From a virus: a stretch of DNA of 64,000 bases. How positions within the stretch are numbered: the stretch's first letter is position 1; every line of letters starts with the position of its first letter. The stretch is from the IMG/VR virus record IMGVR_UViG_3300027760_000838, one strand, 5' to 3'. The translations under genes and the position numbers were made by a program. The notes below the pieces were generated by a model. That model was not told the DNA's origin. It saw only the letters and a list, made by a program, of their open reading frames with translations, and made no database searches. Shown in pieces: positions 51,254-52,040 of the stretch.

Positions 51254-51337
51254 TGGTGCCCCAGGGGAGACTCGAACTCCCACGCCTCTCGGCACTGGCT
51301 TCTAAGACCAGCGTGTCTACCATTCCACCACCAGGGC
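51254..51337 (-). tRNA. tRNA-Leu(TAG)
   Basis: 84 nt, CTGGT-CTTAGAA-GCCAG, CCA; G1 is shared with the HNH stop codon. Confidence 0.95.
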
Positions 51338-51645
51338 TAATTTCTTCTTCTAAACCTAAACGCTAAATCTTCCATGACACTACGATTTTCAAAACGCACA
51401 CGATCCTGTCTGTTCTCACTGGCCGTACCCCAATACAAATGTCTTGGATTGCTACACAAGCCATTATGGCAAGCATGGCATACATGAATCATATGACCAC
51501 TGGGCATGGTCGTTTCCAACAAGTGTGCCAATAATCCTTTACAGTAAGTACTGCCACCGCCTCTTTCTATACAGGATTCATCAAGATCCAAATGTTCCTG
51601 ACGAAGTGCTTTTGGTTTTAGAATATAATCGTATATGTCTTCCAC
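51337..51645 (-). CDS. Free-standing HNH (His-Me finger) endonuclease, 102 aa
   Basis: VCHACHNGLCSNPRHLYWGTASEN motif. Confidence 0.8.
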   Translation of the reverse strand: MEDIYDYILKPKALRQEHLDLDESCIERGGGSTYCKGLLAHLLETTMPSGHMIHVCHACHNGLCSNPRHLYWGTASENRQDRVRFENRSVMEDLAFRFRRRN

Positions 51646-51658
51646 CTAATATTTAACG

Positions 51659-51896
51659 CAACTTATTGATCATGGCTTGAATTATGAATAACAATCGCCC
51701 TGTTATCATTGCCAGGAATTCACACTTCCTCGGGTACTCTTATTGCTAGGGTAGCTACTCCCATGATTCGTAGTACACACATTGTGTTCAGGTTAACCTT
51801 AGACGATGTCTAAGTGAGCCGGCACTCCCCCAAATACAGACTTAGGCCTAGGCTGGTGGACACAGCCATTTTCTCCAAGCCATGATCAATAAGTTG
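51659..51896 (-). ncRNA. Candidate ~240-nt structured RNA closed by a 21-bp perfect inverted repeat
   Basis: 51659-51679 is the exact reverse complement of 51876-51896; interior has at least four local hairpins and no plausible ORF; strand inferred from the flanking tRNAs. Confidence 0.6.
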
Positions 51897-51970
51897 GTAC
51901 ACCCAACGGGATTCGAACCCGTGTTCTTGCCGTGAAAGGGCAATGTCCTAGGCCTCTAGACGATGGGTGC
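51895..51970 (-). tRNA. tRNA-Glu(TTC)
   Basis: 76 nt, TTGCC-CTTTCAC-GGCAA, CCA. Confidence 0.95.
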
Positions 51971-52011
51971 TTAACTTGTTTAACTTGTTAAAGAACGCTT
52001 ACTAAGTCATT

Positions 52012-52040
52012 AGTATAGCATCAGAGCACTACACTGTCAA
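52012..52040 (-). promoter_or_regulatory. Sigma70 promoter TTGACA-N17-TATACT for the tRNA cluster
   Basis: Near consensus, about 40 nt upstream of tRNA-Glu. Confidence 0.75.

What the first reader, a model, noticed from the sequence alone, without database searches (positions are those of the whole stretch)
51337..51896. ~240-nt inverted-repeat-closed RNA between tRNA-Glu and a minimal HNH nuclease
Seen: a perfect 21-bp inverted repeat (caacttattgatcatggcttg at 51659-51679 and its reverse complement at 51876-51896) begins at the tRNA-Glu CCA and encloses ~196 nt. The interior holds local hairpins: GGCTG/CAGCC 51851-51867, CTTAGAC/GTCTAAG 51798-51814, AGGAA/TTCCT 51714-51730 and ATAACA/TGTTAT 51688-51706. 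About 13 nt downstream starts a 102-aa HNH gene with no obvious separate DNA-binding domain, whose stop shares a base with tRNA-Leu. Established: free-standing homing endonucleases occur in phage tRNA clusters (e.g. T4 SegB), and long flanking stems are RNase III processing stalks. Inference: a stable ncRNA is excised from the tRNA transcript. If it co-occurs with the small HNH, the pair could be an undescribed RNA-associated nuclease or mobile module.
Basis: partly seen in the sequence, partly recalled or inferred. Interest (0 to 1): 0.72.

Follow-up and report, generated by a model that had tools for sequence, protein, structure and literature searches.

The report
Self-pairing folded RNA in phage tRNA operon
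The 238-nt stretch after tRNA-Glu is a real, elaborately folded non-coding RNA from an undescribed family carried in the tRNA operons of large uncultured phages; it probably binds copies of itself, and the small nuclease gene beside it is an unrelated mobile insertion.

Summary
A perfect 21-bp inverted repeat (51896-51876 and 51679-51659, minus strand) starts inside the CCA of tRNA-Glu and encloses 196 nt. No Rfam 15 family matches it.

It is a divergent ("type A") member of a family of at least 59 distinct sequences, found only in viral and metagenome contigs. None occurs in about 185,000 bacterial and archaeal genomes or in cultured phages.

On 55 type-B members a nine-helix fold is 95% paired, and 58 of 71 pairs show compensatory changes.

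The gene is single-copy. It usually sits flush between two tRNAs, behind a sigma-70 promoter and an rrn-type boxA-like leader.

One apical loop is a palindrome in 55 of 55 members, with 16 different palindromes and 7 central tetranucleotides. This is the signature used to support symmetric kissing loops in OLE and GOLLD RNAs. The window keeps the palindromes GCCGGC and GUAGCUAC.

The RNA-HNH module idea fails. Two complete RNA-bearing genomes lack the nuclease, 40 further RNA loci show no nuclease hit, and five nuclease-bearing records lack the RNA motif.

The 102-aa protein is a His-Me finger nuclease related to I-PpoI, and it behaves like a free-standing homing gene.

The scan noted this RNA family before on other DNA (e1-5375662). 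Function remains unknown.

The parts
52012..52040 (-). Sigma-70-type promoter of the tRNA-Glu / RNA transcription unit (TTGACA, 17 nt, TG-n-TATACT)
   Evidence: 11 of 12 consensus matches with an extended -10 TG. A TTGACA-N17-TATAAT promoter lies at the same relative place in most related loci.
51985..51996 (-). rrn boxA-like leader element GUUCUUUAACAA
   Evidence: The motif GTTC(T/A)TTAA(A/C)A lies about 20-30 nt before the first gene in 22 of 27 family loci. E. coli rrnB boxA, TGCTCTTTAACAA, was read from L282:316. Function is inferred from that similarity.
51895..51970 (-). tRNA-Glu(UUC); its last two bases (C75, A76) belong to the closing stem of the RNA
   Evidence: ARAGORN; Rfam tRNA 60.5 bits.
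51659..51896 (-). The 238-nt structured non-coding RNA, a type-A member of the family
   Evidence: Inverted repeat; fold z = -4.6. A profile built from type-B members only hits both of its ends in the right order, E 0.003 and 0.02. Family covariation.
51874..51896 (-). P1, 5' arm of the closing stem (21 perfect pairs plus G-U and A-U)
   Evidence: In relatives P1 is 19-27 bp in the first 19 members, shorter in a few later ones, with different sequences and compensatory changes.
51659..51681 (-). P1, 3' arm of the closing stem
51851..51867 (-). P2 hairpin with the conserved 7-nt loop UGUCCAC, preceded by the junction GAAAAU
   Evidence: 5 of 6 stem pairs covary. The loop is UGU-N-CAC in 54 of 55 type-B members.
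51816..51827 (-). L1-equivalent hairpin carrying the palindrome GCCGGC (51823-51818)
   Evidence: Its position and flanks (ending in CAC) correspond to type-B L1, which is palindromic in 55 of 55 members. GCCGGC is kept in L050 although the flanking stem differs there. The correspondence is inferred.
51747..51763 (-). P7/P8-equivalent hairpin with the apical palindrome GUAGCUAC (51758-51751), flanked by ACGAA and AUAAG as in type B
   Evidence: the loop AGCU becomes AAUU in L027, a double change that keeps the palindrome. Coordinates.
51687..51707 (-). P9 hairpin (GAUAACAG / UUGUUAUU, loop GGCGA) followed by the junction CAUAAU; the most conserved module of the family
   Evidence: This is the pattern that retrieved the family. 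5 of 8 pairs covary in the 55-member set.
51337..51645 (-). Neighbour, not part of the RNA: a 102-aa His-Me finger (HNH / His-Cys box-like) nuclease gene, probably a free-standing homing endonuclease
   Evidence: Pfam; I-PpoI alignment over the catalytic His and Asn. H57, C56, C59, C64, H69 and N78 are invariant in 9 homologues. Distribution is independent of the RNA.
51254..51337 (-). tRNA-Leu(UAG), next gene of the operon; shares base 51337 with the nuclease stop codon

Best explanation
The element is a gene for a stable, elaborately folded non-coding RNA. It belongs to an undescribed family of about 165-245 nt, present once per genome in the tRNA operons of large uncultured phages.

Proposed mechanism:
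1. A sigma-70 promoter and an rrn boxA-like leader drive transcription through tRNA-Glu, the RNA, the nuclease ORF and further tRNAs (inferred).
2. The two ends of the RNA pair into a helix of about 20 bp (P1). In the precursor P1 includes the CCA tail of the upstream tRNA and, in most relatives, ends at the first base of the next tRNA.
3. tRNA processing enzymes (RNase P and the 3'-end nucleases), and possibly RNase III acting on the outer half of P1, therefore release the RNA (inferred).
4. The mature RNA is a multi-junction fold (P1 to P9) with invariant single-stranded junctions (fold shown by covariation in type B).
5. An apical loop that is always self-complementary probably lets two copies kiss, as in OLE and GOLLD RNAs, giving a dimer or a larger assembly (inferred).

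The cellular role is unknown. The adjacent nuclease gene is an independent selfish insertion.
For: Real fold:
- 24 members: 97.7% of cells paired and 44 of 72 pairs compensatory, against 32-49% paired in slid controls.
- 55 members: 95.3% paired and 58 of 71 pairs compensatory; no shuffle reaches the observed values.
- Many conserved G-U pairs would be A-C mismatches on the other strand, so the tRNA-sense strand is the folded one.

Not a known family:
- Rfam finds only tRNAs under the element, in the window and in relatives.
- No match in 50,697 phage records.
- No true match in the bacterial and archaeal genome collection.

Genomic setting:
- Single copy in two complete genomes and three large fragments.
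- The P1 5' arm overlaps the last 2-5 nt of a tRNA in 21 of 28 loci.
- A tRNA starts within -3 to +14 nt of the 3' arm in 13 of 28 loci. The 40 further loci are similar.
- Promoter plus boxA-like leader in 22 of 27 loci.

Self-pairing:
- The L1 apex is a palindrome of 6 nt or more in 55 of 55 members, with 16 distinct palindromes and 7 central tetranucleotides.
- The central tetranucleotide changes at least 11 times on a tree built from the rest of the RNA.
- In the window's clade AGCU becomes AAUU.
- The same argument was used for symmetric kissing loops seen by cryo-EM in OLE and GOLLD (bioRxiv 10.1101/2024.12.08.627333).
- Internal control: the P8 loop is palindromic in only about half of members, so nothing generic forces palindromic loops.
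Against: - No expression or RNA-end data exist, so excision and stability are inferred.
- The window's central domain differs from type B, and only four close type-A sequences exist. Its internal helices are therefore poorly tested (2 compensatory pairs).
- The window's L1-equivalent palindrome GCCGGC is offset by one base from the hairpin apex.
- In the window the 3' arm is followed by an ORF, not a tRNA, so RNase P cannot set the 3' end here.
- Palindromic loops show selection for self-complementarity, not that a dimer forms in cells.
- Family members were gathered with exact motifs, so the sample is biased towards conserved ends.
Confidence: 0.7

Rival explanations
1. RNA-guided or RNA-associated nuclease module: the small HNH protein and the RNA work together as a mobile or targeting unit.
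For: They are 13 nt apart in the window and in three near-identical contigs. In L014 they lie about 270 nt apart.
Against: The type-A adjacency is one lineage, not independent evidence. In L014 two tRNAs lie between them. No nuclease hit in 40 further RNA loci. Two complete RNA-bearing genomes lack the nuclease. Five nuclease-bearing records have no RNA motif, and nine nuclease loci have no RNA within 3 kb. L023 has the same gene order as L014 but tRNA-Cys and tRNA-Leu(UAG) lie 19 nt apart with no nuclease between them.
Confidence: 0.03
2. Only a processing spacer: P1 is an RNase III or tRNA-maturation stalk and the interior has no function of its own.
For: A helix of about 20 bp joins the two flanks, with a boxA-like leader upstream, as in rRNA operons. 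In type B the outer half of P1 varies freely while staying paired.
Against: A spacer needs no conserved interior. Here 8 internal helices covary, and stretches such as UAAAAGCAAAC, GGAAAA, AAUGCAC and CAUAAC are invariant or nearly so across 55 members. The L1 palindrome is under selection.
Confidence: 0.1
3. A protein-bound regulatory or decoy RNA, for example a Y-RNA-like partner of a Ro60-type protein, or a decoy for a host defence or tRNA-targeting enzyme. The palindromic loops would then bind a dimeric protein rather than another RNA.
For: It has a long closing stem and sits among tRNAs, like phage and bacterial Y RNAs. One RNA-bearing jumbo genome encodes a TROVE (Ro60) protein. Highly conserved single-stranded stretches could be protein sites.
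Against: The Rfam YrlA model gives only weak hits, all over tRNAs or other stretches of the arrays and none on the element. TROVE is absent from the other complete RNA-bearing genome and from three large fragments. A sequence-specific protein site would not tolerate 16 different palindromes.
Confidence: 0.15
4. A DNA-level element: a miniature transposable element with terminal inverted repeats, a recombination site or a replication origin.
For: Perfect 21-bp terminal inverted repeats bracket 196 bp.
Against: It is single-copy in the window and in complete genomes. The arm sequences differ between relatives yet stay complementary. Interior helices covary and use G-U pairs that work on one strand only. 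It always lies in tRNA sense inside tRNA operons.
Confidence: 0.02

Closest known systems
GOLLD RNA (Rfam RF02032), ROOL RNA and OLE RNA: large ornate RNAs that form RNA-only dimers or cages (Kretsch et al., bioRxiv 10.1101/2024.12.08.627333)
   Same: Phage-encoded, function unknown and located in tRNA islands. The fold is multi-helix with covariation. An apical loop switches between palindromes (GGCC, GAUC, AGCU and others), the signature used for symmetric intermolecular kissing loops. GOLLD itself lies 0.6-1.1 kb from this RNA in two loci.
   Different: There is no detectable homology: the GOLLD model does not hit the element at E up to 1. This RNA is three to four times smaller (165-245 nt). 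It has a closing stem of about 20 bp fused to tRNA ends. It occurs in genomes where no GOLLD was found (that search's controls did not ring). Oligomerisation is untested here.
Phage T4 species 1 and 2 RNAs (rnaC, rnaD) and T5 RNAX: stable RNAs of unknown function co-transcribed with phage tRNAs (from general knowledge and the scan's earlier notes)
   Same: A non-tRNA stable RNA gene embedded in a phage tRNA cluster, presumably released by tRNA processing.
   Different: No sequence similarity to any cultured phage record. The fold is different and the loop is palindromic. Not compared by structure.
rRNA operon architecture: boxA antitermination leader plus RNase III processing stalk formed by the flanks of 16S or 23S rRNA
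   Same: A promoter is followed by a boxA-like element, with 11 of 13 bases matching E. coli rrnB boxA. A stable RNA is enclosed by a long flank-to-flank helix next to tRNA-Glu.
   Different: The enclosed RNA has no rRNA homology (nhmmer --max found nothing). RNase III cleavage and Nus factor binding are untested.
I-PpoI (His-Cys box) and HNH_3-type free-standing homing endonucleases; for comparison T4 SegB and the T5 F-Tfl nucleases in tRNA clusters (the latter from general knowledge). This entry concerns the neighbouring ORF.
   Same: A His-Me finger core with the catalytic His, the metal-binding Asn and the Cys/His zinc ligands aligned. It lies in tRNA gene clusters and shows presence/absence between loci of the same gene order.
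   Different: Only 98-102 aa. The Pfam scores fall just under the gathering thresholds. The target site and activity are unknown.

Membership tests
Undescribed phage tRNA-operon RNA family (this report; type B defined on alignment A8) | Closing stem P1, then junction GGAAAA or GAAAAU, then hairpin P2 with loop UGU-N-CAC | tested here: met
   Window 51896-51851. The type-B-only profile hits 51873-51849 at E 0.021. Coordinates.
Undescribed phage tRNA-operon RNA family (this report; type B defined on alignment A8) | 3' module: hairpin P9 (GAYAAYAG, loop GGNNA, UUGUURUY), then CAUAA, then the P1 3' arm | tested here: met
   Window 51710-51673 hit at E 0.0029 by the type-B-only profile. The shared 21-nt pattern retrieved the family.
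Undescribed phage tRNA-operon RNA family (this report; type B defined on alignment A8) | Central domain P3 to P8 as in type B | tested here: inconclusive
   The window's centre does not align by sequence. It shares only the frame: a P3a GCC/GGC pairing, and ACGAA, a palindromic hairpin, then AUAAG. Only four close type-A sequences exist. A covariance model could not be built because calibration was forecast to exceed the limit.
Undescribed phage tRNA-operon RNA family (this report; type B defined on alignment A8) | Self-complementary apical loop | tested here: met
   GCCGGC at 51823-51818 and GUAGCUAC at 51758-51751. AGCU becomes AAUU in L027. Type-B L1 is palindromic in 55 of 55.
Undescribed phage tRNA-operon RNA family (this report; type B defined on alignment A8) | Location in tRNA sense inside a phage tRNA operon, abutting a tRNA 3' end | tested here: met
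GOLLD RNA (RF02032) | Match to the Rfam covariance model at 150 bits or more | tested here: not met
   No GOLLD hit on the element at E up to 1. The model does detect true GOLLD at L013:7640-8102 (210 bits) and L291:7549-8012 (201 bits).
Y RNA / YrlA (RF02553) with Ro60 | Match to the YrlA model, and a TROVE-domain protein encoded by the same genome | tested here: not met
   There are only sub-threshold hits, none on the element. TROVE is present in 1 of 2 complete RNA-bearing genomes and in 0 of 3 fragments.
HEARO / IscB omega-RNA (HNH-associated RNA) | Rfam HEARO model match next to a protein of about 400-500 aa with RuvC and HNH domains | tested here: not met
   No Rfam hit. The ORF is 102 aa with only the His-Me finger.
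RNase III processing stalk | Uninterrupted double helix of about 20 bp or more formed by the two flanks of a stable RNA | tested here: met
   21 perfect pairs in the window; 19-27 bp in the first 19 members.
RNase III processing stalk | Staggered cleavage by RNase III | not testable with these tools
   Needs RNA-end mapping or an in vitro assay.
His-Me finger (HNH_3 / His-Cys box) homing endonuclease (neighbouring ORF) | Catalytic His, metal-binding Asn and Cys/His zinc ligands in the beta-beta-alpha-metal core | tested here: met
   Aligned to I-PpoI residues 81-120. These residues are invariant in 9 homologues.
His-Me finger (HNH_3 / His-Cys box) homing endonuclease (neighbouring ORF) | Pfam gathering score reached | tested here: not met
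   26.0 bits against a cut-off of 27; 19.2 bits against 24.8.

The most novel reading that the evidence does not exclude
This family is a further, much smaller class of natural RNA that assembles with itself without protein, alongside OLE, ROOL and GOLLD. It would form a dimer through L1, or a larger ring or cage where the second loop (P8) is also palindromic. Large phages would make it from their tRNA operons to act on tRNAs or the translation machinery during infection.
Probability: 0.35. Interest if true: 0.8.

Novelty: new variant of a known kind. Interest (0 to 1): 0.62.

Why it matters
Only a few natural RNAs are known to build defined RNA-only quaternary structures, and two of them (GOLLD and ROOL) also sit in phage tRNA islands with no known function.

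A third, unrelated family in the same niche carries the same palindrome-switching loop. That suggests self-assembling RNAs are a recurring phage strategy linked to tRNA operons.

At about 200 nt it is small enough for mutational, biophysical and cryo-EM or crystallographic work, which is harder for the much larger GOLLD.

The family also shows that some phage tRNA operons use an rRNA-operon-like layout: a boxA-like leader and a long flank-to-flank stalk.

For annotation, the 200-240 bp "gaps" in tRNA arrays of large environmental phages are genes. The small His-Me nuclease next door should be annotated separately, as a homing-type endonuclease.

Tried and rejected
- **Rfam.** Four scans of the window and 26 related loci gave only tRNAs, two GOLLD copies and a tmRNA, and nothing on the element. 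A fifth scan of three loci, run to identify an upstream tRNA-like element, added the second GOLLD copy.
- **Cultured phages.** BLAST of the window region and of a type-B member found no match beyond the tRNAs.
- **The window's exact arm sequence in IMG/VR.** No match.
- **Mini-rRNA idea**, prompted by boxA, tRNA-Glu and the stalk. A profile search against E. coli rrnB found nothing. Only short matches turned up, and I treat them as chance: 12 nt of the type-A P1 arm equals 16S nt 13-24 (E 0.065), and P9 of L027 matches 23S 2447-2460 at 13 of 14 positions (E about 1).
- **Anticodon-loop mimicry by the P2 loop.** I first read UGUUCAC as a Glu UUC anticodon. I dropped this because the fourth loop base varies (U, A or C) and position 33 is G.
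- **Intramolecular L1-P8 kissing.** Rejected because the two loops do not covary with each other.
- **Dependence on GOLLD.** Not supported: no GOLLD match in five large RNA-bearing records, two of them complete. The search's controls did not ring, so its sensitivity is unproven.
- **Covariance model of the family.** Sequence profiles were used instead.
- **Catalogue of IMG/VR structured RNAs** (Fremin et al. 2023, PMC10690425). Its supplementary files are not held, so I could not check whether the motif is listed there.
- **Two looser 3'-motif scans.** They returned mostly chance matches and no new members.

Full report
**Observation**

All genes in this stretch lie on the minus strand. In order they are:
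- tRNA-Glu(UUC), 51970-51895
- a 238-nt non-coding stretch, 51896-51659
- a 102-aa ORF, 51645-51337
- tRNA-Leu(UAG), 51337-51254, followed by tRNA-Gly and two tRNA-Ser

The inverted repeat is exactly as described: 21 nt, 100% complementary, 196 nt between the arms. It is unique in the window, and none is expected by chance. Its 5' arm begins at C75-A76 of the tRNA-Glu CCA. The stretch folds far better than shuffles (-86.5 kcal/mol, z = -4.6). Permissive Rfam scans find only tRNAs here.

**Relatives**

The nuclease protein retrieved 11 IMG/VR contigs, all in tRNA arrays. Only one of them (L011, the same contig as L014) had a similar RNA. There it lay directly after tRNA-Glu, with a 20-bp closing stem of a different sequence and two tRNAs between it and the nuclease.

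I then scanned with motifs shared by the window and L011:
- The conserved 3' hairpin gave 28 distinct members from IMG/VR and JGI metagenomes.
- The 5' motif of the commoner form gave 40 more viral contigs.
- Neither motif gave a true match in one genome each of about 185,000 bacterial and archaeal species.
- No cultured phage record matches.

I distinguish two forms.
- **Type B**: 55 distinct sequences (alignment A8).
- **Type A**: the window plus three near-identical contigs (L027, L050, L079; alignment A6).

A profile built from type B alone hits the window only at the two ends of the element, in the right order (E 0.003 and 0.02 in 128 kb). The two forms also share two framing features: the P3a pairing, and a central unit of ACGAA, a hairpin with a palindromic apex, then AUAAG. 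The rest of the window's central domain is divergent, and with four close sequences it is poorly tested.

**Structure**

I defined a hand-curated fold for type B:
- closing stem P1
- hairpin P2 with loop UGU-N-CAC
- long-range P3a
- P3/P4 carrying the apical hairpin L1
- P5 enclosing an optional P6 and the P7/P8 hairpin
- hairpin P9

Support for this fold:

| Alignment | Members | Cells paired | Pairs with compensatory change | Slid controls |
|---|---|---|---|---|
| A5 | 24 | 97.7% | 44 of 72 | 32-49% paired |
| A8 | 55 | 95.3% | 58 of 71 | 33-50% paired |

No shuffle out of 500 reaches the observed values. Many conserved G-U pairs make the fold specific to the tRNA-sense strand.

Several single-stranded stretches are invariant or nearly so: GGAAAA, AAUGCAC, UAAAAGCAAAC and CAUAAC. 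This argues that the interior, not only the stalk, is functional.

In type B the inner 11 bp of P1 are almost constant in sequence. The outer 9-10 bp vary but stay paired.

**Context and biogenesis (inferred)**

- The gene is single-copy in two complete genomes (171 and 368 kb, with direct terminal repeats) and in three large fragments.
- In 21 of 28 loci the P1 5' arm overlaps the last 2-5 nt of a tRNA: Glu in 16 loci, otherwise Leu, Val or Asp.
- In 13 of 28 loci a tRNA starts within -3 to +14 nt of the 3' arm. The 40 additional loci behave alike, and in two of them the RNA is the first gene after the leader.
- In 22 of 27 loci the unit is preceded by a TTGACA-N17-TATAAT promoter and, about 20-30 nt before the first gene, by GTTC(T/A)TTAA(A/C)A.
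- In the window the promoter is at 52040-52012 (11 of 12 consensus matches, extended -10), and GUUCUUUAACAA is at 51996-51985.
- This matches the E. coli rrnB boxA, TGCTCTTTAACAA, which I read from the MG1655 record.

The layout therefore resembles an rRNA operon: promoter, boxA, then a stable RNA closed by a flank-to-flank helix. I infer three things:
- The operon is transcribed under Nus-type antitermination.
- P1 forms in the precursor.
- The RNA is freed by RNase P at the downstream tRNA, by 3' maturation of the upstream tRNA, and possibly by RNase III in the variable outer half of P1.

None of this is shown. In the window an ORF, not a tRNA, follows P1, so here the 3' end must be set in another way.

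**Self-complementary loop**

The apex of L1 is a perfect palindrome of 6 nt or more in all 55 type-B members. There are 16 different palindromes and seven different central tetranucleotides: UGCA, AGCU, UCGA, GGCC, CUAG, GAUC and ACGU. On a tree built from the rest of the molecule, the central tetranucleotide changes at least 11 times, always from one palindrome to another.

Adjacent bases of a tetraloop cannot pair with each other within one molecule. Kretsch et al. used exactly this kind of switching (GGCC to GAUC or AGCU) as evolutionary support for the symmetric intermolecular kissing loops they saw by cryo-EM in OLE and GOLLD.

As an internal control, the P8 loop is palindromic (GGCC, UGCA, GCGC) in only about half of the members, and is GACG or GCAA in most of the others. 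L1 and P8 do not covary with each other.

In the window's clade, the P8-equivalent loop AGCU is AAUU in L027, a double change that keeps the palindrome. GCCGGC in the L1-equivalent hairpin is kept in L050 although its flanks differ there.

I therefore think homodimerisation, or higher assembly where both loops are palindromic, is the most likely physical behaviour. I put this at about 50-60%.

**The nuclease is a separate matter**

The ORF is a His-Me finger protein.
- Pfam zf-His_Me_endon and HNH_3 match, both just below their thresholds.
- The best solved relative is I-PpoI, aligned over the catalytic His, the zinc ligands and the metal-binding Asn.
- These residues are invariant in nine homologues of 57-80% identity.

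It lives in tRNA arrays, often just upstream of tRNA-Leu(UAG). L014 and L023 share the order Leu(UAA), Cys, Leu(UAG). L014 has the nuclease between Cys and Leu(UAG), whereas in L023 these two tRNAs are 19 nt apart.

Evidence that it is independent of the RNA:
- No nuclease hit in the 40 additional RNA loci.
- None in two complete RNA-bearing genomes.
- Five nuclease-bearing records lack the RNA's 3' motif.

The RNA-nuclease adjacency in the window reflects one lineage.

**Comparison with known systems**

The closest analogues in behaviour and niche are GOLLD and ROOL, which are ornate phage RNAs of unknown function in tRNA islands with kissing-loop quaternary structure. GOLLD itself lies 0.6-1.1 kb from this RNA in two loci. 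But there is no detectable homology, the RNA is far smaller, and it occurs in records where no GOLLD match was found.

It is not a Y RNA. There is no YrlA match, and a Ro60 gene occurs in only one of two complete genomes. It is not a HEARO/omega RNA. It shows no rRNA homology.

My literature searches found no description of it. A catalogue of about 8,500 IMG/VR RNA motifs could contain it, but its tables are not held.

I reached the palindrome reading before seeing that note and tested it here. It is not independent evidence.

**Verdict**

The RNA-nuclease module is not. The RNA is a new, non-homologous variant of the known kind "ornate, probably self-assembling phage RNA in tRNA islands". Its function remains unknown.

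Noticed in passing
window 51985-52040 (minus strand) and the same relative position in 22 of 27 related loci: The phage tRNA operon starts with a near-consensus sigma-70 promoter followed by an rrn boxA-like element (GUUCUUUAACAA; E. coli rrnB has UGCUCUUUAACAA). In many relatives a GNRA-capped hairpin (UGUUAA-GAAA-UUAACA) lies just before it, like boxB. This suggests Nus-factor antitermination of a phage tRNA array.
   Followed up: partly
L013:7640-8102 and L291:7549-8012: Full-length GOLLD RNA (210 and 201 bits), each with an embedded tRNA, lies 1.1 and 0.6 kb downstream of the new RNA in the same tRNA array. Five other large RNA-bearing records gave no GOLLD match.
   Followed up: partly
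L067:3197-3518: A betaproteobacterial-type tmRNA (168 bits) lies on an RNA-bearing contig. It is either phage-encoded or a hint that the hosts are Betaproteobacteria.
   Followed up: no
window 51878-51889 (P1 5' arm): UUGAUCAUGGCU is identical to 16S rRNA nucleotides 13-24 (the 27F primer site), so the 3' arm is antisense to the 16S 5' end. E is 0.065 against one rrn operon and the match occurs in type A only. Probably chance.
   Followed up: partly
window 51694-51707 and L027 (P9): The family's most conserved hairpin strand (GAUAACAGGGYGAU) resembles 23S rRNA 2447-2460 in the peptidyl-transferase centre (13 of 14 positions in L027, E about 1). Not significant, but it is the most conserved part of the RNA.
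   Followed up: partly
L014:6596-7266 compared with L023:5713-5893: Presence/absence of the His-Me nuclease gene between tRNA-Cys and tRNA-Leu(UAG) in two loci with the same gene order. In 7 of 12 loci the nuclease lies just upstream of tRNA-Leu(UAG), which may be its homing target.
   Followed up: partly
L085:2233-2315, L109:1969-2049, L291:8887-8967: A class-II-like tRNA (Rfam 33 bits, anticodon loop CUGUAAA, so probably Tyr) that ARAGORN misses sits directly upstream of the RNA in these loci.
   Followed up: partly
L019:5523-5623 and a tRNA about 28 nt downstream of the RNA in L298: ARAGORN calls tRNAs of about 100 nt with a four-base anticodon (tacc) in two RNA-bearing arrays. L009 and L010 (nuclease-bearing) carry a tRNA with anticodon CUA, a possible amber suppressor.
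   Followed up: no
L105:2644-2746: A second, partial copy (the 3' half) of the RNA lies about 200 nt upstream of the complete copy: a local partial duplication.
   Followed up: no
G005:C1:155864-156745 (L329, L330): The complete 368-kb RNA-bearing jumbo phage encodes a TROVE (Ro60-like) protein about 48 kb from the RNA. The complete 171-kb genome has none.
   Followed up: partly
window 51643-51658: The nuclease ORF starts with GUG immediately after AGGU, with no spaced Shine-Dalgarno sequence, 13 nt after the base of P1. Its translation may depend on how the precursor is cut.
   Followed up: no
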